64,000 bases of DNA from an uncultured Desulfobacterales bacterium. GTDB taxonomy: Bacteria; Desulfobacterota; Dissulfuribacteria; Dissulfuribacterales; JALVPX01. Below the pieces are notes generated by a model. The model worked only from the letters and a program-made list of their open reading frames with translations. It did no database searches and was not told where the DNA came from. Below are positions 1,480-59,624 of the stretch, piece by piece (the stretch's first letter is position 1; each line of letters opens with the position of its first letter). Both the position numbers and the translations under genes were made by a program. The stretch covers positions 84,011 to 148,010 of the forward strand of contig CAYWKF010000011.1 in assembly GCA_964459155.1 (NCBI GenBank), written 5' to 3'.

Positions 1480-2859
1480 TTGCCAGAGATAGGTAGCTTT
1501 AATAGTGCCAAATCCTTTATTGAAGGACTGGACCTTTCGAATAGACATGGGCCAGCCTTTCTGTTTCTGGGAAGAAACGAGGCAACAGCACCTCTTGTCG
1601 GCATGCTTATAGATAAGCTTTTGCCAGAAGGTCCTTCAGATTTCAATCTTCACAAGTTTGATACAGAAAGTGCCATGCCATCGGCTGTGGCTGAAGCCCT
1701 TGGGTCGGCATCCCTGTTTCCGGGCAGAAAGGTTGTCTTGATAAAAGATCCACCATTTTTTTCCATCCAGTCCAAGTCCTCTTTAGACTGGGAAGATTTC
1801 GTCCAATTACTAGAAGCAGACAAGGTCAAGAAAGCTGCAACTGTTCTGGCAACTCTGCTTCATGAAACTTCTTTGCGCCCTGAAAATGTGGCTGAAATGG
1901 ATGACAGTCAATTCAGGAAAGCAGCAGGCGTGGATGAAGATTTTGACATTGCTTCGGTTAGAAAATTTGTCCAGACCAATCAGCCGTTAATAGACAGGTT
2001 GATGAGTGTGGGCCAGGCAGATTGGTCATGGCTCGAATCCTGGATAAAGGCCTCTGGTGCAAAAGTTGATGTTGCGCTGGTGGTTACGGCAGAGAAGGTA
2101 GACAAGAGGTCTAAGTTGTTCAAAGTGTTCAAAAAACATGGCACCGTGTTTGACCTAGCTGCTTCCTCGCAGCGTGAAGAAAAGGAGCAACTACACTCTT
2201 TTTTTGCAAGATATGCCAAGGAAAGAGGCCTGAAGTTCAGCCGGGAGGCCGCAACACTGTTCTTACAGAGAGTAGGTAATGACCTTGGGGCCCTGAAAAG
2301 GGAATTGGAAAAACTTTCTCTATCCAACACTACTGTTACAGGGACTATTGATATCGAGCAGGTAGAGGAGTTGGTCACTGCCCATAAGATTGATGAACTT
2401 TATGAGCTCAACGAGGCCTTGGGAAACAAAGACGTTGCTTTGGCCTTGAAAATTGTCCGAAAGTTGCTGGACCAAGGCTTTCATCCATTGGCCATTTTCC
2501 AGGGCATGGCCAACTACCTGTTGAAACTGTTCCTGCTGCACCAGGCCCTGGCTGGAATCGGCCTGAAAAACATGTCACAAATAGGCTCTTATCCAAGATT
2601 TCAAAAAGAGATATTGCCTTTGATAAAAAAACATTGGGAGGAAGGCTGCCCAGAAATCATCAAAAAATCTCATCCTTACGGACTTTTTAAAATGGTGCCG
2701 AAGGCAGCATCTTTTTGCACCACACAGGAATTTTTGGAAATCATACAGGCCCTTTATCACTTTGACCTGGCCCTGCGCACTTCTGCCATACCTCCAGATT
2801 TGGTGCTTGAAGCCTTGCTCTTCCAGGTTATTAAGGGGGAATCGTCTGGTGGAAAATAG
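1480..2859 (+). CDS. holA: DNA polymerase III delta subunit (long form, 459 aa)
   Basis: LFPGRKVVLIKDPPFF near the N-terminus and FSREAATLFLQRVGNDLGALKRELEKLSL, the delta-subunit signature. The TTG start abuts the proC stop. Confidence 0.7.
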   Translation: MPEIGSFNSAKSFIEGLDLSNRHGPAFLFLGRNEATAPLVGMLIDKLLPEGPSDFNLHKFDTESAMPSAVAEALGSASLFPGRKVVLIKDPPFFSIQSKSSLDWEDFVQLLEADKVKKAATVLATLLHETSLRPENVAEMDDSQFRKAAGVDEDFDIASVRKFVQTNQPLIDRLMSVGQADWSWLESWIKASGAKVDVALVVTAEKVDKRSKLFKVFKKHGTVFDLAASSQREEKEQLHSFFARYAKERGLKFSREAATLFLQRVGNDLGALKRELEKLSLSNTTVTGTIDIEQVEELVTAHKIDELYELNEALGNKDVALALKIVRKLLDQGFHPLAIFQGMANYLLKLFLLHQALAGIGLKNMSQIGSYPRFQKEILPLIKKHWEEGCPEIIKKSHPYGLFKMVPKAASFCTTQEFLEIIQALYHFDLALRTSAIPPDLVLEALLFQVIKGESSGGK

Positions 2860-3454
2860 AAAGTCCCTCTTGCCTGTGGCCCGTTTTCTGTTCGAAGGCT
2901 CCATGCTCAAAAAGGTCTTGCGCACAGGATATCCTTTTCTTGGCAAGGGAGAGGAGTCAGTGGCAGCTCACACCTTTGGAGTGATGTTGGCTGCCTTTGC
3001 GCTGGCAAAAGAGTTTGAATCAGTAGATATGGAGCGTTTATTGCATCTGTGTCTATTCCACGATCTTACAGAGGCTCGCACAGGCGATGCCAACGCAGTG
3101 CACAAGCTCTATTTAACCATTGATGAGGAGAAGGCAGCTAGGCATATGACGCGGGAACTTGACTGGGGACAAGAGGTCTATGATCTGCTCGAAGAGTATC
3201 GTGCGGCAGAGACCGTTGAGGCCCAGATTGCCCATGACGCAGACCAGATCGACATGCTTCTTTCCCTGAAGGAGCATCTTGACACTGGAAGTGAAGACGC
3301 AGGATTATGGATTCCCTATGTCAGGGCCAGGCTTAAAACAGAGCCGGCCAAAAGGCTTGCAGAAGCCATTATGAATGAACATTGGGCAGCATGGTGGATG
3401 CGCGATCTGTTAGGAAAAGACTTCAAAAAAAATAAAAATGTAAAGGAGGAGTAA
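2849..3454 (+). CDS. HD-domain phosphohydrolase (YfbR/5'-deoxynucleotidase-like)
   Basis: ESVAAHTFGVMLAA and HLCLFHDLTEARTGD (H..HD..D pattern). The GTG at 2849 overlaps the holA stop. The ATG at 2903 is an alternative start. Confidence 0.7.
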   Translation: MENRKSLLPVARFLFEGSMLKKVLRTGYPFLGKGEESVAAHTFGVMLAAFALAKEFESVDMERLLHLCLFHDLTEARTGDANAVHKLYLTIDEEKAARHMTRELDWGQEVYDLLEEYRAAETVEAQIAHDADQIDMLLSLKEHLDTGSEDAGLWIPYVRARLKTEPAKRLAEAIMNEHWAAWWMRDLLGKDFKKNKNVKEE

Positions 3455-4599
3455 TGATAAACAAGAAAATTCTATTTTGGCTTAGCCTGTTTATTGCAGT
3501 TCCAGCCTTTGCCCTTGCCTCAGCTCAGGGTAAGGCAAAGGTCAAGATCTATTATACGGCCAACACCTATGGTTACCTGGAGGCATGCCCTTCTTGAAAG
3601 GGCAAAGTGGTGGGCGGTCTTGCCCGCCGGGTTCAATGGCTCAAGGAAAATAGGAAAAAAAAGGATGCTTCTTTGCTCCTCGATGCGGGGGATTCCCTCT
3701 TTCCTGGCGAATACGCCAGGGGGGACATCTACAAGAAAAGGGCAGACTACATGCTGGAAGTGTATGGAATGCTTGGTTACGATGCCTTTGGTATTGGCAG
3801 GCGTGACCTGCCCTTTGGTATCCAATTCCTTGAGGAGCAGTCCAAGAAGCATGGAATCGAATTTGTTTCAGCAAATCTCCTTTCCAAAGGAAAAAGGCCC
3901 TTTGCTCCTTACAAGGTTTTCAAAGTTGGAGACACCAAAGTGGCAGTCATCTCTGTGATATCTTCCAGGCCGAACAAGACGTGGGAAGCAATGTCCATTT
4001 CAGTAGTCGATCCAAGGCCATTCCTGCAGGAGACAGTGCCTGCGCTCAGGAAGGAGGCCGATCTAGTGGTGCTCCTTTCGAATCTGGGCGAAGTGGAAGA
4101 CCGCAATTTGGTGAAAGAGATTCCAGGAATAGATCTTGTGATAGGAAGTGGCCTTGGTTCGAGATTTAAATTCCCCGTAAAGGTGGCGGACAAAACATAC
4201 ATGGTAAGGCCGCAGAGTAGGGGTAAGAGTATCGGCTGGGTGGAAATTAACATTCCATTTACAGGCCAGGATGACGAGATAAAAGGTGAATTGGTATTCC
4301 TTTCAGGCGTGGTGAAAGACGATCCAGAAGTGGCTAAGAAGGTCAAGGCCCTGGAAACAGAAACCAGGAAATGGGAACGCATCCACAAGAAAAAGGTCTC
4401 TTCAAGCCCTAAGGATCGTAAAAAGGCGGCCAAAGACAACCCATTCTTGAAGGCCCTTGAAAAGGCAAGAAAACAGAGAAAGGCCTTAGACGCAAAAGGT
4501 GAAAAAGGCAGTGGTGCATCCTTTTTGGAAATCCTTAAAAAAGGCCAGACCGAACAACCTGCTGCACCCAGCAACCAAGATTCCTTAAGGCTTAAGTAA
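3454..4599 (+). CDS. Secreted calcineurin-fold (5'-nucleotidase/metallophosphoesterase-like) protein with an in-frame UGA at 3595-3597; candidate selenoprotein with a CPSU motif
   Basis: The ATG at 3454 overlaps the HD-gene TAA and encodes signal peptide MINKKILFWLSLFIAVPAFALASAQG. Next come KIYYTANTYGYLEACPS-UGA-KGKVVGGLARR..LLLDAGDS in one frame. The family's motif I lies upstream of the UGA, and its GG.ar and DaGD motifs lie downstream. Confidence 0.6.
3595..3645 (+). promoter_or_regulatory. UGA codon plus downstream SECIS-like hairpin
   Basis: GGCGG (3613-3617) pairs with CCGCC (3624-3628) around loop UCUUGC (GGUCUU context), starting 15 nt after the UGA. An outer CUUGA (3593-3597) / UCAAG (3641-3645) pairing is possible. 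Confidence 0.4.
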
Positions 4600-4606
4600 C
4601 AGAACG

Positions 4607-5827
4607 ATAGTAACCAGAAAGACGAAATCAAAACAGTGTGTAAAATGCGGCTCATGCCTGGCTGTATGCCCTGTTTACAGGGTTACCAGGCATGAGCGTT
4701 TTTCTCCCAGGGGTAAAAATGCCCTGGTTCAACATCTTGGTTCATCATTCACTTCTAAACAAGATCTCAAATTAGTTTCTGAGACCATCAAGGCTTGTCT
4801 TCAATGCGGGGCATGTACATCAGTCTGCAATGCTGGTGTAGAGGTGGATGCCATAATACGGGAAATCAGGGCCTCTAGAGGAACTGAAAGCAGTCCACCA
4901 TGGTGGTTGAAGCCCATCTTCTCCAATCCAAAAGTGGTTGAACAGATAGCTCCTCTGGCCTTGCGCCATCCAAAGGCAGTTGGTTTTTCTTTGAGACTGC
5001 TTGGATCACAATTTGGCCATGAAGCAAAAAAGATGGCCGTTTTTTTGGCAAAGCAATCCTTTTTGTCCTCACAAGGCGCAGAGAAAAGGGGTAAGGATGA
5101 CAAACCTAGTGCGCTTTTTTTCGTAGGATGCATTCAAAACTTGTGCTTCACAGAGTCTGCAAGGGCAGTGTTGGAGGCGCTGCTTTCCCAGGATTTTCGT
5201 GTGATCCTACCAAAGAACCAGGGCTGTTGCGGCATGGCGCTTTTTTCGGCTGGAGCATTCGAAGAGGCTAAAAGGGCGGCAGCCCACAATCTTCAAATAA
5301 TCAGGAAGCATAGGCCTGACTTCATTGTAACAGGGTGTGCTACATGTGCTTCCATGATATCTAAATGGGAAGGGCTTTTCAGGCATGATGATCCGCTGAA
5401 ACAGGTGGCTCAACATTTTGGAAAAAAGGTCTATGAACTCTCCGCCTTCGTCAAAGAGCATGGTGACGCCATAGCAGTCAAAAGGGCTACTTGGACCAGG
5501 GGAAAAAGAGTGGCTTATCATTTGCCATGCCACCAAAAATATGGATTAAAGGAGGAAAATAGTGGTCCAGAGCTACTGGCCAAGGCCTTTAACGAAGACT
5601 TCGTGAAAATGGGCCAGGGCTGCTGTGGACAAGGCGGCCTTTTCGGCCTAGGCCATCCCAAGGAATCGTATGCCATGGCCCAAGAGCGGATTGAGAGCGC
5701 AGCCCAGGAAGGGGTATCCGTAATTGCAACCACCTGTTCCGGATGCTTGCTCCAGTGGAAGATGGCCATTAAAAAAGAGGGTGCAGAAATCAAGGCGTGC
5801 CATTTTGCAGAGGTGTTCAGTTGGTAA
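4607..5827 (+). CDS. GlcF/GlpC/HdrD-like Fe-S oxidoreductase (two 4Fe-4S ferredoxin motifs plus two CCG domains); start codon unresolved
   Basis: In frame: CVKCGSCLAVCP and CLQCGACTSVCN, then CCGMA..TGCATC and CCGQGG..TCSGC cysteine-rich CCG motifs. The frame opens at 4589. There is no ATG/GTG/TTG before the GTG at 4844. The ATA at 4607 is the only near-cognate codon. Confidence 0.7.
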   Translation: MVTRKTKSKQCVKCGSCLAVCPVYRVTRHERFSPRGKNALVQHLGSSFTSKQDLKLVSETIKACLQCGACTSVCNAGVEVDAIIREIRASRGTESSPPWWLKPIFSNPKVVEQIAPLALRHPKAVGFSLRLLGSQFGHEAKKMAVFLAKQSFLSSQGAEKRGKDDKPSALFFVGCIQNLCFTESARAVLEALLSQDFRVILPKNQGCCGMALFSAGAFEEAKRAAAHNLQIIRKHRPDFIVTGCATCASMISKWEGLFRHDDPLKQVAQHFGKKVYELSAFVKEHGDAIAVKRATWTRGKRVAYHLPCHQKYGLKEENSGPELLAKAFNEDFVKMGQGCCGQGGLFGLGHPKESYAMAQERIESAAQEGVSVIATTCSGCLLQWKMAIKKEGAEIKACHFAEVFSW

Positions 5828-13875: not shown

Positions 13876-14508
13876 TCATGGCCCTTGTTCAGCGTTTTGG
13901 GTAGGGCCTTGGGCCATGCTGCTATTTTCTATCTCTTCCCAGCCAGTGAGCATGCCCTTCAAGTGAGACAAAGGTGTCTTGCCTGTTGTGGTCAGATAGC
14001 TGTGCAGGATCAGGAAGGCAAGCATCAAAAAAGCACCAGCACTATGCAAAATGGCAACACTGCCAAAGGAGATGCCGAGTGATTGGTTGTAATAGTAGAG
14101 TAGTCCCGTAACGAATAGCAAAGGAAATATGAATATCTTGAGAAAGAGATAGGCAAGCCTCTGTAGGGCATTTAACTTTTTTTCAGGATGTTTTTCATGG
14201 GGGTGGCATTCACCCTTGAATATGCCGCACGCATAGTAATAGCAGATTTCGGCCATCTTTTCCCTGATGGGCAGATAGTGTCTCCATTCACCAGTGGTAA
14301 AATGCCAAAAAATGGCAAAGGCAGTCAGGCCGAGCAGCGTCCAGGCGGAAATGTCATGCCATTTTACCGCCCTTTCAAATCCTAATAACGTATATGAGCC
14401 ATGAATCTCAAAGCCGGTAAGGAGAAGCACCAAAATCAAAATGGCTTGAAACCAGTGCCAAAATCTTTCAAAACGGCTGTATAAATAAACTTTTTCGGCC
14501 ATGATCAT
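13876..14508 (-). CDS. Membrane di-heme cytochrome b (Ni/Fe-hydrogenase / FdnI / PhsC-type b subunit)
   Basis: YSRFERFWHWFQAILILVLLLTGFEIHG opening, four predicted TM helices with conserved His. It starts 10 nt downstream of the cytochrome c gene. Confidence 0.8.
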   Translation of the reverse strand: MIMAEKVYLYSRFERFWHWFQAILILVLLLTGFEIHGSYTLLGFERAVKWHDISAWTLLGLTAFAIFWHFTTGEWRHYLPIREKMAEICYYYACGIFKGECHPHEKHPEKKLNALQRLAYLFLKIFIFPLLFVTGLLYYYNQSLGISFGSVAILHSAGAFLMLAFLILHSYLTTTGKTPLSHLKGMLTGWEEIENSSMAQGPTQNAEQGP

Positions 14509-14517
14509 TCCTCCGTC

Positions 14518-16089
14518 CTATTTTTTTCTGGCAAGAACAATCCTCAAGAGCCCGTGACCGATGACTAACAGCAGTGTTAATCCGCACAGCAGCCACCCGG
14601 CCTTGTCCACAAGATTGGAAAGATCTCTACCAGGGATGTAGACCCCTTTTACTGCTGCCAACCTGCCAGCCTGACGCCTGTGGCATTCTTGGCAATCGAG
14701 ACTCTTTTCCTTGGGGGGGATCATGTGGGAAAGTGGCAAATAATAGAGTGTTTCTACAAATTCGAGCTTGCCGCTGAAAGGCACTCCTGCTTCTTTCATC
14801 CCAGCCTCGGCTGCTTTGAGCCAGTCATATTCTGCCCAAAATGCACCGGAACCCTTTTTGCCAAAAAGTTTGGGAATAACCATTGTTTTGTTCTCAGGGT
14901 CATACGGCTGTTTGCCAAGATGGACCTTGAAAGGGTAAATCTTGGACTTCGGGTCCCCGGGTTCACCAAGTGGCTTGTTGAGCCAGATCCTGTTGTTCTG
15001 GGGCTCTTTTTTGTCTGTGACCACGGTGTGTTGCATGGTCCCGTTGAACCAGAAATATTCTGGAACAACGTCCTTATCCCATGCCATGGTGCCCTTTTTG
15101 GTATGGTAAGCTGGTTTGCCAAATTTGTCCTTTTTCACAATCGGTTTGTGATCCGGCCCAAATTCGCCTGCAGTTGACCAATCCCAAAAGATGTTGGTGG
15201 GCATGGAACGGGCATAGTAGGGAACATGGCAGCTTTGACATGCCACCTTGTCTGTGTGGTGGTTCAATTTTTCTTTTTTGTGTGGATTGAGACCATGACA
15301 TGATGCACATCTGATTCTGTGCCCGTCATCCTTTGGAAGTGCCAGCTGCTCCTTGCCCTCAGGCGGATTCCTATATTTGCGTCCATCAATCTCATGCTCA
15401 ATAGCAGTGTGGCAAGTGGAACAAGAAAAATTCAGTCCTTTGGCATCCATATGCACATCCAAATTTTTCTCTGGATTCGACAGGGTGCTGTCCAGATCAC
15501 CCCTCTTGACTCCATCTCCGCCACCGCTGTAAAAGTGGCACTTGCCGCAGCTTGCCCTGCTGGTCGGACCAACATTTTGTGCCACCATTTGTAAGTTGAC
15601 AGGTTCAAAGACCTTCTTACCAGCAAAAACTTTTCTTTCATAAGGCGGGTAGCCACAGGCAGTTGGAAATTTTTTGTACTTGCCTGTTGTGTCATGGCAA
15701 ATAAGGCAATCTATCTTTTCAGCATTGTTGAAATCAAAGGAATGGTCTTTCCAGCCGTAACCTGCATGGCAGCTGGTGCACCTGCACCAGTTCGAGGTCA
15801 CGGCCACTCAGAAGTTGTTGATTACATGCCTTTTCCCCAGCTTTCGGCCTTCAAAGTCTGATTCCCACGTCCAGTGGATGGTTTTTTGAAATTGTTCAGC
15901 AGCCTTGTTGTGGCACTTGAGGCACGCCTTGGTTACCTCTTCAGCGGTCTTGAAATCCTTCTTCAGCTCCTCAAATTTTCCATGGTCAGCAGTGGATGCG
16001 TCGGATCGGGTGGTTGTGCTTGGCTTGGAAAAGACGGCAGAAGGTAACAGGAGAGACAAAAATAAGACTAAAGGCAAGGTGGTTTTCAT
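14518..16089 (-). CDS. Octaheme c-type cytochrome (tetrathionate-reductase/Otr-like family) with an in-frame UGA at 15808-15810 and a C-terminal TM anchor; candidate selenoprotein
   Basis: The 93-aa ORF (signal peptide MKTTLPLVLFLSLLLPSAVFS plus heme 1 CLKCH) and the 429-aa ORF (CTSCH, CLICH, CGKCH, CSTCH, CASCH, CQSCH, CQECH) are contiguous in one frame. They are separated only by TGA: ..GKRHVINNF-U-VAVTSNWCRCTSCHAGYGW. This gives 8 CxxCH motifs in total. Confidence 0.65.
15773..15810 (-). promoter_or_regulatory. UGA codon plus downstream SECIS-like hairpin
   Basis: The minus strand reads UGA, then 17 nt, then CUGGUGC-AGGU-GCACCAG (7 bp stem, GGU-containing apical loop). Confidence 0.5.
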
Positions 16090-31354: not shown

Positions 31355-31709
31355 TGGTGGAGGCGGCGGGAATCGAACCCGCGTCCGGAAGCATTCCACT
31401 CAAGCTTCTACGTGCGTAGCCTGGATTCCTTTTTTCACCCGACACCATCCATCCAGGCGGGATGGTGACGAGCTAGCTTGCAACTGTTTCACCCTTGAAG
31501 GGGCAAGCACCCTTCAAGCGGCTAGCCTGCTAGGTCGACGCCCAGGTCCCAGCGTGCAGGCCCGCTGGGTTGGACGCTGGCTGATTATGCAGCCAGTGCG
31601 TACTCGTATTCAGAGTCGGCGTTTGTGTTTTTGTCTGCCTTTTTACGAGGTGGCAGTCCTCGGCACGCCACTTGAGCTTCCATACCCCCGTCGAAGCCAG
31701 GTCGCCCCC
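31355..31709 (-). ncRNA. ssrA: tmRNA (transfer-messenger RNA)
   Basis: The minus strand starts GGGGGCGACCUGGCUUCGACGGGGG..GCCGAGG..CCUCGUAAAAAG and ends GGACGCGGGUUCGAUUCCCGCCGCCUCCACCA. The tag frame ends ..GCC GAC UCU GAA UAC GAG UAC GCA CUG GCU GCA UAA. By analogy with the E. coli layout the probable tag is ADSEYEYALAA, with resume codon GCC at 31618-31620. Confidence 0.95.
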
Positions 31710-51185: not shown

Positions 51186-51265
51186 AGCTCTTTTAATGTC
51201 GAGACAAAGTTGGTTATACAAAAAAAAACGCTCAATTGGTATATAAAGATAGACAGGAAGAGACC

Positions 51266-52177
51266 ATGAAGCTTAAAAAGGCGATCATAACTGGAGGTTC
51301 TGGATTCATAGGGCGTCACTTGGTTAAATTGGTGCCAGAGCCCATAGTAGTAGGAAGGAGCAGCAAAAAACTCCAAAAGGTTCTTCCCAATGTACAAAGC
51401 CTTGAATGGCACCCTCCTGAGCTCATTTCAAAGGAAGTGTTCGATGATGTTGATGTGGTTTTTCATCTGGCCGGGGAAAATATTTATAAGGGCCGCTGGA
51501 ACGAAGAGAAAAAGAAAAGGATTTTTGAATCAAGGCAGGTGGGTACGCGGACAATAGTTGAATCTATGTGCCAGGCAAAGAACCGCCCCAAAGTCCTGAT
51601 TAGCTCGTCTGCAGTGGGATATTATGGCGACCGTGGCGATGAAGAGCTCACCGAAGACTTTGGCCCAGGTTCTGGCTTTCTTGCCGAGGTGTGTCAAATG
51701 TGGGAAATGGAAGCCATGAGGGCCACTAGTTGCGGAGTCAGGGTTGTTCCGATACGCACAGGTATCGTTTTGGGTAGGGATGGAGGGGCCTTGGTAGAAA
51801 TGCTGAAGGTGTTCAGGTTTGGGCTGGGCGGCAAGCTGGGAAAAGGGAATCAGTACATGTCTTGGATTCATATAGAAGACCTGGTCTCCATAATGACCTA
51901 TTGTGCTCAGACTGACACGATATCAGGGCCTGTAAATGCGGTCTCACCAAATCCGGTGACCAACAAGGAATTTACAAAGACACTTGCCAAGGTGCTGAGA
52001 CGCCCTGCCTTTATGACTGTTCCTGCCACCCTGTTGAAATTGGTTCTTGGCGAATTTGCAGATGCGGTACTGACTTCCCAACGTGCCTTGCCTCAAAAAC
52101 TCTTGAATTCAGGCTATCAATTCAGGTATCCTTCTTTGCAAGATGCTCTTACCAATTTGTTGAGAAAGGAACGATGA
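51266..52177 (+). CDS. TIGR01777/YfcH-type NAD-dependent epimerase-family protein (SDR plus DUF1731)
   Basis: ITGGSGFIGRHL Rossmann motif and the C-terminal SQRALPQKLLNSGYQFRYPSL tail typical of DUF1731. Confidence 0.8.
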   Translation: MKLKKAIITGGSGFIGRHLVKLVPEPIVVGRSSKKLQKVLPNVQSLEWHPPELISKEVFDDVDVVFHLAGENIYKGRWNEEKKKRIFESRQVGTRTIVESMCQAKNRPKVLISSSAVGYYGDRGDEELTEDFGPGSGFLAEVCQMWEMEAMRATSCGVRVVPIRTGIVLGRDGGALVEMLKVFRFGLGGKLGKGNQYMSWIHIEDLVSIMTYCAQTDTISGPVNAVSPNPVTNKEFTKTLAKVLRRPAFMTVPATLLKLVLGEFADAVLTSQRALPQKLLNSGYQFRYPSLQDALTNLLRKER

Positions 52178-52183
52178 CTGGAA

Positions 52184-53194
52184 GTGGTGTTTTGGAAAAA
52201 TTGTTGCCTCGTTCTTGCCCTGGTTTTTCTCCTAGGTCCAACAAGTCGTGCCAAAGCAGGAGGGCCTGGTCCAGACTATATTCCTCAAGATAGAGATATT
52301 GCCACCAGGGTTTATGCCCAAGTGGTCAGCACGCCTTGCCCTGTATTCCGCAACCCATGTGACGATCTAGAAGGCTGCAAGCCGGTCCGTTTTCTTGAAG
52401 GTGATTTCGTTTGGGTAAGCCTCGAGAGTCCTGACCCAGTAGATTCAGGCGGGCAACTCTGGTATTTGATCAATCCGGGTGAATTTGTTCCGTCTGAGTA
52501 TTTGTTGATCAAACCAGTTTCACAGTTCAATGGAATATCAATCAAGGAAGATCAATTTTTCCCCTTTGCGTGGGTAATAATGGATGCCTACATTACTCAA
52601 AATCCAGGCAGCTATTTCAACCCGTCCGACAAGCCGATAGCAAAATATACCATGATAAAGATTCTTCAGGCAAAAAGGATAGGCAGATGGAACTGGTACA
52701 GGATAGATGACAACTGGTGGATAGAACAGAGGATGGTTGCCATGGTTCAGGCGAGGCCAAGGCCTGAAGGCATCGGACCTGATGAAAAATGGATCGACGC
52801 AGATTTATATGAGCAGACAATATGTGCCTACGAGGGTGACAAAATGGTCTATGCGACACTGATTTCTTCAGGCGTGCGAGACTATGAAACAGTCCAAGGC
52901 AAGTACAGGATATGGATTAAGGCCCGTTCCGCGAAAATGAGCGGAGGGGAAAAAGAGGGCACCAGATATTTTCTTGAGGACGTGCCGTACCACATGTACT
53001 TTTTGAGCAACTATGCAATACATGGGGTTTACTGGCACAACCGTTTTGGAACCAGGCAATCGCATGGGTGCCTCAATGTATCTTTAAAAGATGCGAGATG
53101 GTTTTTTTATTGGACCCACCCTGTTCCATCCACAAAGTCGAATTGGACCAAGGCTACGGCCCAGGATCCTGGAACGTGGGTTGTAGTCCATTAA
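52184..53194 (+). CDS. L,D-transpeptidase (YkuD domain) with an N-terminal SH3-like region
   Basis: The catalytic motif ..IHGVYWHNRFGTRQSHGCLNVSLKDARWFF (HxxxxxxxxSHGC) and a signal peptide VVFWKNCCLVLALVFLLGPTSRA. Confidence 0.8.
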   Translation: MVFWKNCCLVLALVFLLGPTSRAKAGGPGPDYIPQDRDIATRVYAQVVSTPCPVFRNPCDDLEGCKPVRFLEGDFVWVSLESPDPVDSGGQLWYLINPGEFVPSEYLLIKPVSQFNGISIKEDQFFPFAWVIMDAYITQNPGSYFNPSDKPIAKYTMIKILQAKRIGRWNWYRIDDNWWIEQRMVAMVQARPRPEGIGPDEKWIDADLYEQTICAYEGDKMVYATLISSGVRDYETVQGKYRIWIKARSAKMSGGEKEGTRYFLEDVPYHMYFLSNYAIHGVYWHNRFGTRQSHGCLNVSLKDARWFFYWTHPVPSTKSNWTKATAQDPGTWVVVH

Positions 53195-55124: not shown

Positions 55125-55170
55125 TTTGTTGATTATTGTCACAACCCCATACAAATGGTAGGTTTTGCCT

Positions 55171-56238
55171 ATGAAATTCGAACTTAAATGGTTGGCATGG
55201 GAAATTACTCGGCGGTGTAACTTAAAATGTGTTCATTGCCGGTCTTCATCAGAGCTTGAGGTCAAGGAACATCCTGATTTTCCGCTGGAGGAAGCATACC
55301 GGATCTTGGATGATATAGCCGCTTTTGCCTCTCCGGTGGTTGTTTTATCTGGCGGAGAGCCCCTTTTGCGTCCGGATGTATTCGACATCGCACAATATGG
55401 AACAGATAAGGGCTTCAGAATGTGTCTGGCCACCAACGGCACCCTGGTTACCCAGGATGTGTGCGATTCCATAAAAAGGACCGGCATCAAGATGGTGTCT
55501 TTGAGCCTGGATGGTGCAACTGCTGAAGTGCATGACAACTTCAGACAGCAGCCTGGGGCCTTTGAAGGCACTCTCAATGCTGCTCGGCTTTTCAGGGAAA
55601 ATGGCATTCAATTTTTGATAAATTCTTCCTTTACTAAACGTAATCAGGAAGACATACCAAAGGTGTATGAGTTGGCCAAGGAGCTTGGAGCCACTGCTTG
55701 GTACCTTTTTATGATAGTTCCCACCGGCAGAGGCGAAGACATTCTGAAGGAACTTATATCTCCAGAGGACTACGAGAAGATACTTGACTGGCACTATCAG
55801 ATGGAGAAGGAGGAAAACGAACTTCTTGTGAGGCCTACCTGTGCCCCACACTATTACCGGGTAAGGATGCAGAAGGCCAAAGAGGAAGGCGAAAGAGTGA
55901 AACCACGAACTTTGAAGTTTTCCACCGGTGGCTCAAAAGGCTGCCTGGCCGGGCAGCTTATTTCTTTGTTGGACGTGGATGGCAATGTGCTTCCATGCAG
56001 CTACTTTCCAATGCCTGCAGGCAACATTCATGAAAAAAGCTTCAAGGATATATGGGAAAATAGTAGGCTATTCAAGGAATTGAGGGATTTTTCTTCCTAC
56101 AAGGGAAGATGCGGCGTATGCGAATATGTTAATATCTGCGGCGGCTGTAGGGCCAGGGCATATGCAGTAAATGGCGATTACCTTGCAGAAGAGCCGTTCT
56201 GCACATATTTGCCCCGTAGGATGAAAGGCAAAAAATAG
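55171..56238 (+). CDS. Radical SAM/SPASM enzyme, AhbD/NirJ-like (candidate Fe-coproporphyrin decarboxylase / heme synthase)
   Basis: [18 protein letters not shown] (CxxxCxxC) near the N-terminus and a C-terminal SPASM cysteine cluster [18 protein letters not shown]. It lies immediately upstream of hemE-hemH-hemY. Confidence 0.6.
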
Positions 56239-56257
56239 GAGGGGAGGTTGGAGATCG

Positions 56258-57280
56258 ATGAATGACAGATTTTTGAGGGCATGTGCAGGGGAGAAGGTTA
56301 GCCCTGTTCCTGTGTGGCTCATGCGCCAGGCTGGCCGATATCTTCCTGCTTATCAGGCAGTCCGCAATCAGACAGATTTTCTTACCCTTTGTAAGACCCC
56401 TGAGCTGGCAGCTGAGGTAACTATACAGCCCATAGACATATTAGGAGTGGATGCCGCAATCCTCTTTTCGGACATATTGATTCCACTGGAGCCCATGGGC
56501 ATAAAACTTACTTTCCTGGAAGGCGCAGGTCCTGTGCTAATCCCACCTGTCCGGACCATGGAAGATTTGAACAGGCTTCGGACCATATCGCCAAAGGATG
56601 ACGTTCCCTTTGTGCTTGAAACTATAAAGATCCTTCGAAGGAAGCTCAAAGAAAAGGTTCCTCTAATAGGGTTTGGAGGGGCACCATTTACCCTTGCAAC
56701 TTATATGATTGAAGGCGGCACTACCCGTACATTCTTGTATACGAAGCGCATGCTTTTTGAAGAGCCGGAGATGTTCGCGAAATTGATGGATCTCCTTACA
56801 GAAGTCACCATCTCCTACTTGAAGGCCCAGGCAGAAGCTGGCGCCCAAGCGGTTCAGCTCTTCGATACTTGGGGAGGTATCTTGTCAAGAGGGGATTATA
56901 TCTCTGCTGTTAAACCATACGTGGAAAGGATCTTGGCAGAACTAAAAGAGACAGGGATACCCCGAATATATTTCGTATTAGATGGTGGCCATTTGCTCCA
57001 GGATTTGAGAGAATTAGACGCAGAGGTAATAGGGCTCGACTGGCGGATGGATATCAGAGACGCCTTGATAAGGCTTGGAAAAGAAAAGGTCGTTCAGGGC
57101 AACCTTGATCCTTTCTCCCTCTTTTTGCCAGAGGAGCGCTTGCGCCAACGGGTGTCTGACATACTTGAACAGGGCAGGGAGGCCAAAGCTCACATATTCA
57201 ACCTCGGCCATGGGATAATGCCTGCCGCACCTCCTGAAAAGGCAAAGCTCCTGGTCGATTTGGTGCACGAACTTTCCTAG
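56258..57280 (+). CDS. hemE: Uroporphyrinogen decarboxylase
   Basis: PVWLMRQAGRYLPAYQ, the DAAILFSDIL motif and LGHGI near the C-terminus. Confidence 0.92.
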   Translation: MNDRFLRACAGEKVSPVPVWLMRQAGRYLPAYQAVRNQTDFLTLCKTPELAAEVTIQPIDILGVDAAILFSDILIPLEPMGIKLTFLEGAGPVLIPPVRTMEDLNRLRTISPKDDVPFVLETIKILRRKLKEKVPLIGFGGAPFTLATYMIEGGTTRTFLYTKRMLFEEPEMFAKLMDLLTEVTISYLKAQAEAGAQAVQLFDTWGGILSRGDYISAVKPYVERILAELKETGIPRIYFVLDGGHLLQDLRELDAEVIGLDWRMDIRDALIRLGKEKVVQGNLDPFSLFLPEERLRQRVSDILEQGREAKAHIFNLGHGIMPAAPPEKAKLLVDLVHELS

Positions 57281-57288
57281 ATCCACAT

Positions 57289-58257
57289 ATGATAGGCGTT
57301 GTATTGCTCAACATGGGAGGGCCAGATTCTCTGGACGCGGTTCGCCCTTTTCTCCAGAATCTATTTTCTGACAGGGAGATCATCCAATTAGGCCCCAAAT
57401 TTGTTCAGCCCTTTATTGCGCGTTTCATAGCGTGGAGAAGGGCACCAAAGAGCGCCAAAGCCTATGAAAAGATAGGCGGCAAAAGCCCTTTGACCGAAAT
57501 CACCTATAATCAGGCAAAGGCCTTGGAATCGTCTTTAAGATCCAGCGGCTTTGATAACGTAATCTGTAAGGTTGGCATGAGGTATTGGAGGCCAAGGACC
57601 CCGCACATATTGGAGGAATTGGCCAGATTTGGTGTTGGCCGTGTAGTCGGCCTTTCTCTGTATCCCCACTATTCCAGGGCCACCACTGGCTCGTCTGTGG
57701 CCGATTTTTTGGAAAGCTGCAATGCCCTTGGCCTTGAAAGCGCGGTGGTAGATGCATATCCAGATCATCCAGACTACATAAAGGCCCTTTCAAAACTGGT
57801 TGCACTAAAAGCGGCAGAAATAAAGGGTGCAAATGAGGTTGATTTCCAACTGGTTTATAGTGCCCATAGCTTGCCTAAAAAGATGATCGATGAAGGGGAT
57901 CCATACCTGGATCATCTAAAAAAGACAATTTCAGCCCTGGAAGACGAGACAGGAATGAGAGGTACACTTTGTTTCCAGAGCAGGAGCGGGCCAGTGGAAT
58001 GGTTGAGGCCTGCCACAGACGAACTTTTGAGAAGGCTGGTGTCAGAGGGTAAGCAGAATATAATGGTGCTGCCGATAAGCTTCGTGTCCGATCACATAGA
58101 GACGCTGTATGAAATAGATATGTTGTATGGCAGCATGGTAGAGGCTGCTGGTTCAAGACTTTTCAGGGTGCCGGCCTTGAACTGCCATCCAGATTTTATA
58201 GACTGCCTCAAAAAACTAACTCTCAGAAAATTGGAGGAAAAAGGTTGGCTAAAGTAG
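57289..58257 (+). CDS. hemH: Ferrochelatase (proto- or coproporphyrin type)
   Basis: IGVVLLNMGGPDSLDAVRPFLQNLFSDREII, SLYPHYS and FVSDHIETLYEID motifs. Confidence 0.9.
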   Translation: MIGVVLLNMGGPDSLDAVRPFLQNLFSDREIIQLGPKFVQPFIARFIAWRRAPKSAKAYEKIGGKSPLTEITYNQAKALESSLRSSGFDNVICKVGMRYWRPRTPHILEELARFGVGRVVGLSLYPHYSRATTGSSVADFLESCNALGLESAVVDAYPDHPDYIKALSKLVALKAAEIKGANEVDFQLVYSAHSLPKKMIDEGDPYLDHLKKTISALEDETGMRGTLCFQSRSGPVEWLRPATDELLRRLVSEGKQNIMVLPISFVSDHIETLYEIDMLYGSMVEAAGSRLFRVPALNCHPDFIDCLKKLTLRKLEEKGWLK

Positions 58258-59624
58258 TTATAGTGGGAGGCGGCATGTCCGGCCTTTCGTTGGCCGTGCA
58301 CTTAAAACGTCTGAAGCCAGAATGGGAGTTGTCGGTTCTTGAATCGGAATCAAGGCCAGGTGGAAAAGCCTGGACTGTTCAAGAAGATGGGTTCAGGGTT
58401 GAATTTGGAGTAAATGGCGTACTTGACAACAAGCCTCACACACTGGAATTGGCTGGGATGGTGGGGGCTGAGATCTTGTACAGTAATGATGCGGCTCGCA
58501 GACGTTATGTGGTGAAAAAAGGCCGCCTTGTGAAGCTTCCAGAATCCCCCAAGGAATTCTTGACCTCTTCTCTTTTAACTCTGGAAGGCAAGTTGAGGGT
58601 TGTAATGGAAACCATAATCCCAAGAGGGGATGTGGAAAAAGATGAATCCTTGGCCTCCTTTGCAAGGCGTAGGCTTGGAAAAGAGGCCTTTCAATATCTG
58701 ATCGACCCCATGGCATCTGGAATCTTTGCCGGTGATCCTGAAAAATTGTCCCTCAAAAGCTGTTTTCCAAGGATACATGAGCTTGAAATGCAATATGGAA
58801 GCTTGATAAGGGCAATGATCAAGCTGCAAAAAGAAGCGAAAAAGGAAGGCAAGAGCGGCCCTGGTGCCGGGCCAGGCGGCAAACTCACATCGTTCAGGAA
58901 TGGTATGGGAGAGTTGGTAAACGCTTGTGCCCATGAATTGGGAGATTCTTTGCACACTGATACAACGGTGTCTGGAATAGAAAGAGAAAACGGCCTTTGG
59001 AAAGTTGAGTTGGAAGGCGGTAGACATGAAGAGGCGACTCATCTGGTGCTTGCAGCACCGGCAGGTGTGTGTGCAAGCCTTATGAAAAATGTTAATCCAG
59101 GGCTTATGCCTCTGTTGAAATCCATATCGTATCCTCCCATTGCAGTGGTTGCCTTTGCCTTTGAGACTTCGAGGCTTCCAAGGCCTCTTGATGGCTTTGG
59201 CTTTTTGTGCCCTTGGGTTGAACAGCGAAAGATATTGGGTGCCCTGTGGGATTCTTCTGTCTTCAAATTCAGGTCACCAGACGGTTATTCTCTCATAAGG
59301 GTGCTGGCAGGAGGTGCAAGGCGGCCAGAAGTTGCTGGCTACCGGAAAGAAAGGCTCGTTGATACAGTATTGAAAGAGCTGAAGGATATCATGGGCATCA
59401 GTGTCAAGCCTGAAACCATGTGGCTGCATGTTTGGCCTCATGCTATTCCGCAGTATCAGATTGGATACTCCTCTTTGCTGGACTGCATCGAAAAGGAGAG
59501 AAAGAAGACACCAAACCTCTTTTTCAGGTGCAACTGGGTGGGTGGTGTAAGCCTCAACGATTGCGTCGCGAATAGTAAGGCATTGGCACACAGCCTGGCC
59601 GATTCCGATGTTCAAAAGGGCTAG
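58245..59624 (+). CDS. hemY: FAD-dependent protoporphyrinogen/coproporphyrinogen oxidase (HemY/CgoX family)
   Basis: VVIVGGGMSGLS dinucleotide fold, GGK.. and a C-terminal GVSLNDCV motif. 459 aa, overlapping hemH by 13 nt. Confidence 0.8.
   Translation: MAKVVIVGGGMSGLSLAVHLKRLKPEWELSVLESESRPGGKAWTVQEDGFRVEFGVNGVLDNKPHTLELAGMVGAEILYSNDAARRRYVVKKGRLVKLPESPKEFLTSSLLTLEGKLRVVMETIIPRGDVEKDESLASFARRRLGKEAFQYLIDPMASGIFAGDPEKLSLKSCFPRIHELEMQYGSLIRAMIKLQKEAKKEGKSGPGAGPGGKLTSFRNGMGELVNACAHELGDSLHTDTTVSGIERENGLWKVELEGGRHEEATHLVLAAPAGVCASLMKNVNPGLMPLLKSISYPPIAVVAFAFETSRLPRPLDGFGFLCPWVEQRKILGALWDSSVFKFRSPDGYSLIRVLAGGARRPEVAGYRKERLVDTVLKELKDIMGISVKPETMWLHVWPHAIPQYQIGYSSLLDCIEKERKKTPNLFFRCNWVGGVSLNDCVANSKALAHSLADSDVQKG

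What the first reader, a model, noticed from the sequence alone, without database searches (positions are those of the whole stretch)
3454..4599. Secreted calcineurin-fold protein with degenerate metal ligands and a C-P-S-UGA (CxxU) motif: second candidate selenoprotein
Seen directly: the ATG at 3454 (overlapping the upstream TAA) encodes a clear signal peptide followed by KIYYTANTYGYLEACPS. An in-frame TGA follows at 3595-3597. The same frame then continues as KGKVVGGLARRVQWLKENRKKKDASLLLDAGDSLF..YDAFGIGRRDL...

The 5'-nucleotidase/metallophosphoesterase layout is motif I hTNDxHG, then GGxaR, then DaGD, then GNHEF. Motif I lies upstream of the UGA and the remaining motifs downstream, so the two pieces belong to one protein.

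The metal ligands look lost: TNDxHG has become TANTYG, and GNHEF has become GRRDL. A CxxU redox-type motif has been inserted between motifs I and II.

A short GC hairpin (GGCGG-UCUUGC-CCGCC) starts 15 nt after the UGA.

Inference: this is a pseudo-phosphoesterase scaffold re-used as a periplasmic thiol/selenol redox protein.
Basis: partly seen in the sequence, partly recalled or inferred. Interest (0 to 1): 0.75.

Follow-up and report, generated by a model that had tools for sequence, protein, structure and literature searches.

The report
Unannotated UshA-like CxxU selenoprotein gene
This is one real gene for an exported selenocysteine protein built on a catalytically dead 5'-nucleotidase scaffold; the type is already catalogued, but this branch is split in two and unnamed in every public gene call seen, and its function is untested.

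Summary
Window 3454-4599 is a single 381-codon gene with an in-frame TGA at 3595-3597, read as selenocysteine (Sec).

Evidence:
- The TGA and a purifying-selected upstream segment recur in all orthologues (64-86% identity) and in more distant CxxU and CxU clades.
- Cys homologues carry the same tetrapeptide (EPCPSC).
- The hairpin after the UGA meets all four published bacterial SECIS criteria, is more stable than over 99% of synonymous recodings, and has frozen synonymous sites.
- TGA is an ordinary stop for 16 of 45 long ORFs in the window.
- A second recognisable selenoprotein gene, an octahaem tetrathionate-reductase-family cytochrome, lies 10 kb away.

The protein has the 5'-nucleotidase N-domain fold but keeps only the motif II aspartates. 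Across the family, the Cys/Sec motif and the catalytic D-x-H are mutually exclusive.

It is not new in kind. UshA-like selenoproteins have been listed since 2008, and NCBIfam holds two models (NF041198, CxU; NF049981, CxxU). The window protein scores below both cut-offs, so it is an uncurated sister clade. Every public gene call seen is the truncated 330-residue form.

The proposed thiol/selenol redox role is plausible but untested. Two related loci lack the partner Cys.

The parts
3443..3449 (+). Shine-Dalgarno sequence AAGGAGG, 4 nt upstream of the ATG
   Evidence: Read directly. Conserved as A/GGAGG or GGGGG in L001 and L004.
3454..4599 (+). Complete selenoprotein gene: 381 codons including UGA-Sec at codon 48, plus the TAA stop. 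Public gene callers split it into a 47-aa ORF and a 330-aa ORF starting at GTG 3607.
3454..3519 (+). Sec-type signal peptide: MINKK, hydrophobic core, A-L-A then S. The cleavage site is predicted by eye.
   Evidence: Sequence read directly. The same layout occurs in L001, L012, L018 and L023 despite low sequence identity. pN is higher here (0.29-0.48) than in the mature part, as expected for a signal peptide.
3556..3573 (+). Degenerate metallophosphoesterase motif I, T-A-N-T-Y-G. The canonical form is T-N-D-x-H-G, so the Asp and His ligands are lost.
   Evidence: Alignment to 2Z1A and to UshA and canonical homologues.
3586..3597 (+). C45-P-S-U48 motif (TGC CCT TCT TGA). These are the only Cys and Sec residues of the mature protein.
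   Evidence: Cys homologues have EPCPSC (P0113, P0214), QPCPYC (P0100) and EPCLTC (P0006) in the same columns. Sec relatives have DPCFGU, DPCPTU and QPCPSU.
3595..3597 (+). UGA selenocysteine codon
   Evidence: Conserved in L001/L002/L003, L004/L012, L005/L011 and in L013-L023. TGA is otherwise a normal stop, ending 16 of 45 long ORFs.
3608..3629 (+). Bacterial SECIS-like hairpin: 9-bp stem, apical loop GUCU at 3617-3620, 19 nt between the UGA and the loop.
   Evidence: MFE; z = -2.3 to -2.9 against synonymous recodings; 9 of 10 codons identical in three orthologues against 24.6% elsewhere; pS 0.09-0.12 against 0.74-0.86; same GGUCU at +22 to +26 as E. coli fdhF; published criteria.
3682..3693 (+). 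Motif II, D77-A-G-D80: the only canonical metal-ligand motif retained.
3796..3807 (+). Degenerate motif III, G-R-R-D. The canonical form is G-N-H-E, so the Asn ligand and the catalytic His are replaced by two Arg.
   Evidence: R117 and D118 are invariant in the closest clade.
4078..4083 (+). Motif IV position, S209-N210. The canonical form is S-H, so the His ligand is lost.
   Evidence: LSNLG is nearly invariant in the clade.
4141..4152 (+). Motif V position, I-G-S-G. The canonical form is G-G-H-S, so the His ligand is lost.
4351..4596 (+). Lys-rich C-terminal tail with conserved NPFLKALEKA (4438-4467) and FxE(I/L)LKK motifs. It takes the place of the 5'-nucleotidase C-terminal substrate-binding domain.
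   Evidence: conservation across P0005, P0090, P0101; no Pfam 5_nucleotid_C hit.
2849..3454 (+). Upstream HD-domain (YfbR-like) hydrolase gene. Its stop overlaps the selenoprotein start (TAATG). It is a conserved neighbour.
4601..5827 (+). Downstream 2x[4Fe-4S] + 2xCCG (HdrD/GlcF/LdhH-C-like) gene, a conserved neighbour. The exact start is unresolved.

Best explanation
Window 3454-4599 is one gene for a Sec-pathway-exported selenoprotein of the UshA-like (5'-nucleotidase N-domain) superfamily.

Shown:
- UGA 3595-3597 sits at a position where homologues carry Cys or Sec.
- It is followed by a conserved hairpin that fits the bacterial SECIS model.
- The upstream 47 codons evolve as coding sequence.
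- The fold is that of UshA, while five of the seven dimetal ligands and the catalytic His are gone.
- Across the family, the Cys/Sec motif and the catalytic D-x-H exclude each other.

Inferred from established knowledge of bacterial Sec decoding:
- SelB with Sec-tRNA(Sec) binds the hairpin at 3608-3629 and inserts Sec at codon 48.

Inferred function (roughly 45% of my belief):
- The mature periplasmic protein no longer hydrolyses phosphoesters.
- It uses the U48 selenolate, in the beta1-alpha1 loop that follows motif I, as its reactive centre.
- C45 would act as the resolving partner, forming a selenenylsulfide, on an unknown periplasmic substrate. That substrate is most plausibly an inorganic sulfur or metalloid species, or a thiol/disulfide.
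- It would be re-reduced by a periplasmic thiol system. In the cytochrome-fused NF041198 sister family the fused haem domain could play that part.
For: 1. One gene, not two.
- NCBIfam models align from residue 12 or 30 straight across the UGA (NF041198 at 181.8 bits over residues 12-348; NF049981 at 114.2 bits over residues 30-295, model positions 1-259 of 262).
- 2Z1A aligns over residues 20-233.
- Upstream mature codons have pN 0.06-0.13 against pS 0.47-0.82.
- In L018 the first possible start after the TGA lies 52 codons downstream, which would delete GGIARR and motif II.

2. Sec.
- The TGA is conserved in L001-L005/L011/L012 and in L013-L023 (CxxU), and in L024, L030 and L035 (CxU).
- Cys sits at the same column in P0113, P0214, P0100 and P0006.
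- TGA is a normal stop for 16 of 45 ORFs.
- A second selenoprotein gene is in the window (TIGR04315 at 592.7 bits against a cut-off of 375, aligned across its TGA).

3. SECIS.
- All four published criteria are met.
- z = -2.9 against synonymous recodings.
- 9 of 10 codons are frozen, P = 2.6e-5.
- Synonymous change is suppressed about 7-fold.
- Sec loci fold more stably than Cys loci, p = 0.002.
- GGUCU lies at +22 to +26, as in fdhF.

4. Dead phosphoesterase on a UshA fold.
- for the ligands.
- A model of homologue P0006 has pLDDT 92, and its best PDB match is E. coli 5'-nucleotidase at E = 3e-22.

5. The Cys/Sec motif replaces the metal site.
- 75 sequences have the motif without D-x-H, 48 have D-x-H without the motif, and 1 has both.

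6. Redox hints.
- The mature protein has no Cys other than C45.
- L030, a true NF041198 member (355.6 bits), fuses the domain to four CxxCH haem motifs.
- Distant Cys homologues sit among DsbD, thioredoxin, DsbA and ars genes.
Against: - No covariation supports the hairpin. It is invariant within the clade, and the 14 CxxU loci share no consensus structure.
- The plain dinucleotide-shuffle z-score is only -1.1, because the G-G-L-A-R-R codons are intrinsically self-complementary.
- No tRNA-Sec was found in the 64-kb window. The only ORFs scanned against protein families were not selA, selB or selD, and most of the window's ORFs were not scanned.
- There is no protein-level evidence of read-through.
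- For the redox mechanism specifically:
  - L014 and L017 carry Tyr instead of the first Cys.
  - The conserved neighbours (holA, HD hydrolase, CCG protein, rlmE, purC) look cytoplasmic or housekeeping and name no substrate.
Confidence: 0.8

Rival explanations
1. It is the same selenoprotein, but C45 and U48 are soft ligands of a rebuilt metal or metalloid site rather than a redox couple. With the surviving D77, D80, D118 and N210 they would bind Cu, Zn, Ni, Fe or As(III). The protein would then be a periplasmic metal or metalloid binder or chaperone, or a SoxB-like hydrolase with a new metal centre.
For: - The acidic residues of motif II and the last residue of motif III are retained.
- L014 and L017 keep Sec but lose the Cys, and that clade carries another Cys directly before motif III (ALC[VI]GKRD).
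- Distant Cys homologues with vicinal GCC motifs lie in neighbourhoods with ArsR, ArsP, Acr3-type and LMW-PTP genes.
- L010 lies next to a heavy-metal P-type ATPase.
- SoxB is among the better NCBIfam hits (76 bits).
Against: - There is no ars or metal gene near the window gene or its orthologues.
- The motif spacing varies (CxC, CxxC, CC), which is loose for a fixed coordination geometry.
- Fusion of the sister family to multihaem cytochromes suggests electron transfer.
Confidence: 0.25
2. The TGA is a true stop, giving two products: a 47-residue secreted peptide and a separate cytoplasmic 330-residue protein initiated at GTG 3607. This is how every public gene call seen annotates it.
For: - Gene callers produce exactly this split.
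- A GTG lies 9 nt after the TGA, with AAGGG just upstream.
Against: - Motif I and strand beta1 of the fold lie upstream of the TGA and the rest downstream.
- The GTG is not positionally conserved: L004 shifts by a codon, and L018 has no start for 52 codons.
- Cys replaces the TGA in full-length homologues.
- Synonymous sites are frozen exactly over the hairpin.
Confidence: 0.03
3. The TGA is a sequencing or assembly error, or a strain-specific nonsense mutation, so the gene is a pseudogene.
For: None beyond the bare presence of a stop codon.
Against: - The same TGA is found in independent assemblies from ENA, NCBI, JGI and Logan, and in clades only 36-38% identical.
- Purifying selection acts on both sides of the TGA.
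Confidence: 0.01
4. The protein is still an active 5'-nucleotidase or phosphodiesterase, and the Sec is only peripheral.
For: Homology to 5'-nucleotidases.
Against: - The equivalents of Asp41, His43, Asn116, His117, His217 and His252 are all substituted (E. coli numbering is from my own knowledge of the UshA structure).
- There is no C-terminal substrate-binding domain.
- D-x-H and the Cys/Sec motif are mutually exclusive.
Confidence: 0.03

Closest known systems
UshA-like selenoprotein family 2 (NCBIfam NF049981; CxxU; listed as 'GenBank annotated' in PMC13188914)
   Same: - It has the same CxxU motif type.
- The alignment covers essentially the whole 262-position model, starting at the mature N-terminus (residues 30-295, positions 1-259).
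- Among everything I tested, the window clade scores highest on this model (114-118 bits, against 62-90 for the other clades).
   Different: - It scores below the curated cut-off of 140 bits.
- It carries an extra C-terminal basic tail of about 85 residues.
- I could not retrieve any true member of NF049981 for comparison.
UshA-like (seleno)protein NF041198 'UshA_like_PCGU' (COG0737 UshA-like, CxU; first reported in the GOS survey, PMC2398784)
   Same: - It has the same scaffold.
- Sec sits in the same loop after motif I.
- The catalytic His of motif I is lost in the same way.
- It is the highest raw score for the window protein (181.8 bits).
   Different: - The cut-off of 275 bits is not reached.
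- The motif is C-G-U (CxU), not C-P-S-U.
- The true member L030 (355.6 bits) carries a C-terminal region with four CxxCH haem motifs. The window protein has no other Cys at all.
E. coli UshA / periplasmic 5'-nucleotidases (PDB 1USH, 2Z1A, CD73)
   Same: - The N-terminal metallophosphoesterase fold is shared (sequence E = 9e-13 to 2Z1A; model of homologue P0006, Foldseek E = 3e-22, TMq 0.65).
- Both are exported proteins.
- Both carry the GG(L/V)ARR and DAGD motifs.
   Different: - It lacks motif I Asp/His, motif III Asn/His, and the histidines of motifs IV and V.
- It lacks the C-terminal nucleotide-binding domain.
- It has Cys/Sec instead.
Thiosulfohydrolase SoxB (TIGR04486; PDB 2WDC)
   Same: It belongs to the same superfamily, is periplasmic, and acts on a sulfur substrate rather than a nucleotide. 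That is a precedent for non-nucleotide chemistry on this fold.
   Different: - It scores 76 bits against a cut-off of 550.
- SoxB keeps a dimanganese site (my own knowledge), whereas here the ligands are gone.
E. coli fdhF SECIS element
   Same: It is a hairpin directly after the UGA inside the coding region, with GGU at +15 to +17 and GGUCU at +22 to +26, identical in position (verified the fdhF sequence).
   Different: - The stem sequence is different.
- There is no bulged U17 in the predicted fold.
- SelB binding has not been tested.

Membership tests
Bacterial selenoprotein gene (general definition) | An in-frame UGA conserved in orthologues, with coding sequence on both sides | tested here: met
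   conservation; pN much lower than pS both upstream and downstream.
Bacterial selenoprotein gene (general definition) | Homologues with Cys aligned to the UGA (a Cys/Sec pair) | tested here: met
   P0113 and P0214 have EPCPSC, P0100 has QPCPYC and P0006 has EPCLTC in the same columns.
Bacterial selenoprotein gene (general definition) | [quoted passage not shown] | tested here: met
   The stem is 9 bp, the loop is GUCU, the spacing is 19 nt and the MFE is -17.4 kcal/mol. It is supported by recoding and synonymous-site tests, but not by covariation.
Bacterial selenoprotein gene (general definition) | Sec machinery (selA, selB, selC, selD) in the same genome | not testable with these tools
Indirect support comes from a second selenoprotein gene in the window.
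Bacterial selenoprotein gene (general definition) | Selenium actually incorporated into the protein | not testable with these tools
   This needs 75Se labelling or mass spectrometry.
NF049981 UshA-like (seleno)protein family 2 | HMM score at or above the curated cut-off of 140 bits | tested here: not met
   The window scores 114.2 bits, and orthologues score 113.5 and 117.8.
NF049981 UshA-like (seleno)protein family 2 | CxxU motif (as listed in PMC13188914) | tested here: met
   C45-P-S-U48 (for the listed motif).
NF041198 UshA-like (seleno)protein, PCGU type | HMM score at or above the curated cut-off of 275 bits | tested here: not met
   It scores 181.8 bits and covers only model positions 5-339 of 519.
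NF041198 UshA-like (seleno)protein, PCGU type | CxU (P-C-G-U) motif | tested here: not met
   The window has A-C-P-S-U. True CxU forms were seen in L024, L030 and L035.
NF041198 UshA-like (seleno)protein, PCGU type | C-terminal multihaem cytochrome c region. This is seen in the true member L030 and in P0026; it is my reading of the model's C-terminal half. | tested here: not met
   The window protein has no CxxCH motif and no other Cys. L030 has four CxxCH motifs.
5'-nucleotidase / calcineurin-like metallophosphoesterase | The metallophosphoesterase fold (N-terminal domain) | tested here: met
   phmmer to 2Z1A gives E = 9e-13. The model of homologue P0006 matches 1OIE/1USH at E = 3e-22. The model is of a homologue 32% identical, not of the window protein itself.
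5'-nucleotidase / calcineurin-like metallophosphoesterase | Dimetal-ligand and catalytic motifs: D-x-H, GD, GNH(E/D), H, GH-x-H | tested here: not met
   Only the motif II aspartates are kept. The other motifs read TANTYG, GRRD, SN and GSG.
5'-nucleotidase / calcineurin-like metallophosphoesterase | C-terminal substrate-binding domain (Pfam 5_nucleotid_C, PF02872) | tested here: not met
   There is no Pfam hit. The C-terminus is a Lys-rich tail.
Thiosulfohydrolase SoxB (TIGR04486) | HMM score at or above 550 bits | tested here: not met
   It scores 76.2 bits.

The most novel reading that the evidence does not exclude
The window clade and its relatives at 36-38% identity (L013-L023) would form a third, uncurated UshA-like selenoprotein family. 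In this family every histidine of the dimetal site has been discarded, and a single Sec in the loop after motif I is the catalytic centre of a new periplasmic selenoenzyme acting on inorganic sulfur, selenium or arsenic species. It would be functionally tied to its conserved neighbours, the HD hydrolase and the HdrD-like 2x[4Fe-4S]/2xCCG protein.
Probability: 0.15. Interest if true: 0.55.

Novelty: new member of a known kind. Interest (0 to 1): 0.3.

Why it matters
The practical value lies in annotation. Every public gene call seen for this clade is a 47-aa ORF plus an unnamed 330-aa ORF, and neither curated NCBIfam model reaches its cut-off. Pipelines will therefore keep missing it. A clade-specific model would recover a set of Sec-containing proteins from uncultured deltaproteobacterial MAGs.

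Biologically, it is a clean example of a catalytic dimetal centre traded for a Cys/Sec motif on an unchanged fold. The two features are mutually exclusive across 138 sequences. The function of the whole UshA-like selenoprotein group has been unknown since it was first listed in 2008. This short, cytochrome-free version has only one Cys and one Sec, which makes it a simple subject for biochemistry.

Tried and rejected
- **Submitting the joined protein.** I used P0001 and the Cys homologue P0006 instead.
- **Genome scan.** The genome-contig scan returned only one locus, a 'Deltaproteobacteria bacterium' MAG. I therefore got no useful taxonomy and no access to the Sec machinery.
- **Metagenome scan.** A 6-sequence alignment worked.
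- **SECIS covariation.** RNAalifold over 14 CxxU loci gave only a trivial 4-bp consensus with no compensatory changes. The clades appear to use different hairpins.
- **Dinucleotide-shuffle z-score.** It is unimpressive at -1.1. The informative control was synonymous recoding.
- **Other read-through candidates in the window.**
  - 51197-53191 is just two adjacent genes.
  - The downstream CCG gene has no in-frame stop.
- **L007 Thioredoxin_3 calls.** The two adjacent calls are in different frames and are not a TGA split.
- **Neighbourhoods of CxC relatives.** L025-L037 sit among housekeeping genes (by N-terminal resemblance clpP, serC, serA, leuA-like and purA; these ORFs were not family-scanned) and give no functional clue.
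- **Model coordinates.** They are not exposed, so the distance from the CxxC loop to the former metal site could not be measured.
- **Pfam.** It gives no hit at all for the window protein.
Full report
**1.

The frame opened by ATG 3454 reads MINKKILFWLSLFIAVPAFALASAQGKAKVKIYYTANTYGYLEACPS. It then meets TGA at 3595-3597 and continues KGKVVGGLARRVQWLKENRKKKDASLLLDAGDS...GIGRRDL... to TAA 4597-4599. The ATG overlaps the TAA of the upstream gene (TAATG) and follows an AAGGAGG ribosome-binding site at 3443-3449. ORF listing shows a 47-aa ORF (3454-3597) and a 330-aa ORF from GTG 3607 in the same frame. Public gene callers report exactly this pair.

**2. It is one gene**

- Pfam finds nothing.
- NCBIfam aligns two models straight across the TGA:
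  - NF041198 'UshA-like (seleno)protein' scores 181.8 bits over residues 12-348.
  - NF049981 'UshA-like (seleno)protein family 2' scores 114.2 bits over residues 30-295, which is model positions 1-259 of 262.
- The solved Thermus 5'-nucleotidase 2Z1A aligns over residues 20-233 (E = 9e-13).
- In orthologues from independent assemblies the 47-codon upstream ORF, the TGA and the downstream ORF are all present. These are L001/L002/L003 (79% identical), L004/L012 (64%) and L005/L011 (86%, contig cut just before the TGA).
- By Nei-Gojobori counts, the mature upstream codons 23-47 have pN 0.06-0.13 against pS 0.47-0.82. That is the same regime as the downstream part (pN 0.12-0.21, pS 0.74-0.86).
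- The GTG used by gene callers is not positionally conserved. In L018 the first ATG/GTG/TTG after the TGA lies 52 codons downstream, past GGIARR and motif II.

**3. The TGA is a Sec codon**

A scan of metagenome contigs with a clade alignment returned 37 loci. I read the codon at the equivalent position in each.

| Type | Motif | Loci |
|---|---|---|
| CxxU | ACPSU | window, L001, L011, L012 |
| CxxU | DPCFGU | L015, L016, L018-L021 |
| CxxU | DPCIAU | L013 |
| CxxU | DPCPTU | L022 |
| CxxU | QPCPSU | L023 |
| CxU | EPCGU / DPCGU / SPCGU | L024 / L030 / L035 |
| CxC | CSC, CRC, CNC, CAC, CKC | nine of L025-L042 (L025-L027, L031, L032, L034, L036-L038) as listed; L028, L039, L040 and L042 by eye from the printed sequences |

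An exhaustive phmmer search found 6,421 representatives at E <= 1e-3. They include full-length Cys proteins with the same tetrapeptide: P0113 and P0214 (EPCPSC), P0100 (QPCPYC) and P0006 (EPCLTC). Many other hits begin exactly at 'M-GGLARR', which is the signature of calls truncated after a Sec codon.

The genetic code is standard. Of 45 long ORFs in the window, 16 end in TGA, 17 in TAG and 12 in TAA.

The window also holds a second selenoprotein gene on the minus strand at 16089-14518. It is a signal-peptide octahaem cytochrome with TGA at 15810-15808. Its read-through product scores 592.7 bits on TIGR04315 (cut-off 375) over the whole model. A 2026 review lists this family among selenoprotein families (PMC13188914). 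This organism therefore evidently decodes UGA as Sec.

**4. The SECIS element**

From the U of the UGA, the RNA folds into a 9-bp stem (nt 14-22 with 27-35, window 3608-3629) and a GUCU loop, at -17.4 to -18.7 kcal/mol. It meets all four criteria of the published bacterial SECIS model as quoted in PMC13188914.

| Criterion | Window element |
|---|---|
| 4-16 bp stem | 9 bp |
| 3-9 nt loop | 4 nt |
| G in the first two loop positions | G, followed by U |
| 16-37 nt from the UGA | 19 nt |
| MFE <= -7.5 kcal/mol | -17.4 kcal/mol |

It proved an exact match inside annotated fdhF in 5,420 genomes. Both elements have GGU at +15 to +17 and GGUCU at +22 to +26.

The peptide G-G-L-A-R-R is encoded by intrinsically self-pairing codons, and the plain shuffle z-score is only -1.1. 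I therefore ran stricter controls.
- The native sequence is more stable than 99.1-99.6% of synonymous recodings (z = -2.9).
- Nine of the 10 informative codons after the UGA are identical in three orthologues, against 24.6% elsewhere (binomial P = 2.6e-5).
- pS is 0.09-0.12 in codons 49-61, against 0.74-0.86 downstream.
- Across 15 Sec and 16 Cys loci, the recoding z-scores average -1.87 and -0.84 (one-sided Mann-Whitney p = 0.002). The loci are related to each other, so this p-value is only indicative.

One result is negative. The 14 CxxU loci share no covarying consensus structure, so covariation does not support the element.

**5. What kind of protein it is**

The alignment to 2Z1A and to canonical family members pairs the motifs as follows.

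| Window | Canonical |
|---|---|
| TANTYG | TNDxHG |
| DAGD | DAGD |
| GRRD | GNHE |
| LSNLG | LSHLG |
| IGSG | GGHS |

In E. coli UshA numbering, which I give from my own knowledge of that structure, the equivalents of Asp41, His43, Asn116, His117, His217 and His252 are all substituted. Only the motif II aspartates are kept. There is no C-terminal nucleotide-binding domain. The protein ends instead in a Lys-rich tail with the conserved motifs NPFLKALEKA and FxE(I/L)LKK.

The joined window protein could not be submitted for modelling. I therefore modelled the full-length CxxC homologue P0006 (32% identical, same architecture). The model has mean pLDDT 92.1 and pTM 0.87, and the CxxC lies in the long loop between strand beta1 and helix alpha1. 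Its best PDB matches are E. coli 5'-nucleotidase structures (E = 3e-22, TMq 0.65).

I classified 138 sequences that carry an N-terminal region.

| Class | Sequences |
|---|---|
| Cys/Sec motif, no D-x-H | 75 |
| D-x-H, no Cys/Sec motif | 48 |
| Both | 1 |
| Neither by my regex | 14 |

At least five of the six 'neither' examples printed carry a D-x-H that the regex missed. The Cys/Sec motif therefore replaces the dimetal centre rather than adding to it. It is a substitution within an existing loop, not an insertion. The mature window protein contains exactly one Cys (C45) and one Sec (U48).

**6. How it probably works**

- **Shown:** the protein carries an export signal, has a dead phosphoesterase site, and has Cys/Sec in the loop after motif I.
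- **Inferred from the established mechanism of bacterial Sec insertion:** SelB binds the hairpin and delivers Sec-tRNA(Sec) to UGA 3595.
- **Inferred with moderate confidence:** the U48 selenolate is the reactive centre, and C45 acts as the resolving residue by forming a selenenylsulfide.

Support for a redox role:
- The true NF041198 member L030 (355.6 bits) fuses the same domain to four CxxCH haem motifs.
- Distant Cys homologues (P0016, P0019) lie among DsbD, thioredoxin, DsbA, ArsR, ArsP, Acr3-type and LMW-PTP genes.

Evidence against a strict C-U couple:
- L014 and L017 carry Tyr in place of the Cys (DPYFGU, DPYIAU).
- Their clade has another Cys directly before motif III.

This keeps open the rival reading that Sec, with or without Cys, ligates a metal or metalloid in a rebuilt site.

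The gene order holA, HD hydrolase, this gene, 2x[4Fe-4S]/2xCCG protein, rlmE, purC is conserved even in the clade that is 36-38% identical. It names no substrate.

**7. Comparison with what is known**

- 'COG0737, UshA-like' selenoproteins with a CxU motif were reported from the Global Ocean Sampling data in 2008: 76 Sec sequences and 92 Cys homologues (PMC2398784).
- They reappear in reviews from 2022 and 2026. [quoted passage not shown]
- The window protein fails both curated cut-offs: 114.2 bits against 140, and 181.8 against 275.
- Among all the clades I tested it is the closest to NF049981, with the others scoring 62-90 bits.
- It is therefore a new, uncurated member, or sister clade, of a known kind and not a new kind.
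- None of the family listings I read assigns these families a function, and I know of no experimental characterisation.

**8. Verdict**

This is a genuine selenoprotein gene that is mis-split in every public gene call seen. The redox function is plausible but unproven. The novelty is modest, and I score interest at 0.3.

Noticed in passing
window 14518-16089 (minus strand); TGA at 15808-15810; hairpin at 15773-15790: This is a second selenoprotein gene: a signal-peptide octahaem c-type cytochrome with an in-frame TGA (…RHVINNF-U-VAVTSNW…). The read-through product scores 592.7 bits on TIGR04315, the tetrathionate reductase family (cut-off 375), over the whole model. A perfect 7-bp hairpin, CUGGUGC-AGGU-GCACCAG, lies at +21 to +38. 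The gene directly downstream of it (13876-14508, minus strand) is a PhsC-like cytochrome b subunit.
   Followed up: yes
window 4601-4680 (start of the CCG gene); also L001, L005, L014, L018: The downstream 2x[4Fe-4S]/2xCCG gene has a conserved CxxCxxCxxxCP motif (QCVKCGSCLAVCPVY, or RCVRCGACLSVCPVY in the other clade). In all five loci the motif lies upstream of any in-frame ATG, GTG or TTG. That suggests a non-canonical start codon, possibly ATA in the window clade and CTG in the L018 clade. The ORF is in frame with the selenoprotein's TAA in L005 but at +1 in the window, so it is not read-through.
   Followed up: partly
L014 2063-2080 and L017 ~409-426: Two related Sec loci have Tyr instead of the first Cys of the CxxU motif (DPYFGU, DPYIAU; TGC changed to TAC). 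Their whole clade (L013-L022) carries an extra Cys two residues before the Gly of motif III (ALC[VI]GKRD), which could act as an alternative partner for Sec.
   Followed up: partly
L007 1497-10253 and L008 815-8011: Distant Cys-type homologues with a vicinal GCC motif (P0019, P0016) lie among ArsR, ArsP permease, Acr3-type SBF, LMW-PTP (ArsC-like), DsbD_TM, Thioredoxin_3, DsbA and SurA_N-thioredoxin genes. This is a metalloid plus periplasmic thiol-redox neighbourhood. The window clade does not share it.
   Followed up: partly
L036 and L037, 48 nt from the second Cys codon of the CSC motif: Two Cys-form loci keep an unusually stable hairpin over the GG(L/I)ARR codons (recoding z = -2.5 and -2.7). 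This is comparable with the Sec loci and could be a fossil SECIS left after a Sec-to-Cys replacement.
   Followed up: no
window 4438-4467 and ~4522-4545: The Lys-rich C-terminal tail is not random low-complexity sequence. NPFLKALEKA(K/R)K and FxE(I/L)LKK are conserved in relatives 33-36% identical (P0005, P0090, P0101).
   Followed up: partly
L030 682-2205: This is a true NF041198 member (355.6 bits) with DPCGU and four C-terminal CxxCH haem motifs. The read-through ORF ends at another TGA, whose nature (second Sec or true stop) was not examined.
   Followed up: no
window 51236-53194: An epimerase-like gene and an L,D-transpeptidase-like gene lie in the same frame, separated by a TGA. The pair mimics a read-through ORF but is two ordinary genes.
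   Followed up: yes
L007 3124-3778: Two adjacent Thioredoxin_3 gene calls (47 aa and 166 aa) looked like another TGA-split selenoprotein. They are in different frames, so it is not a simple in-frame UGA.
   Followed up: yes
window 31355-31709 (minus strand); 55165-59624: A tmRNA gene with tag peptide ADSEYEYALAA lies at 31355-31709. At 55165-59624 there is a haem-biosynthesis cluster: an AhbD-like radical SAM gene, hemE and a protoporphyrinogen oxidase gene.
   Followed up: no
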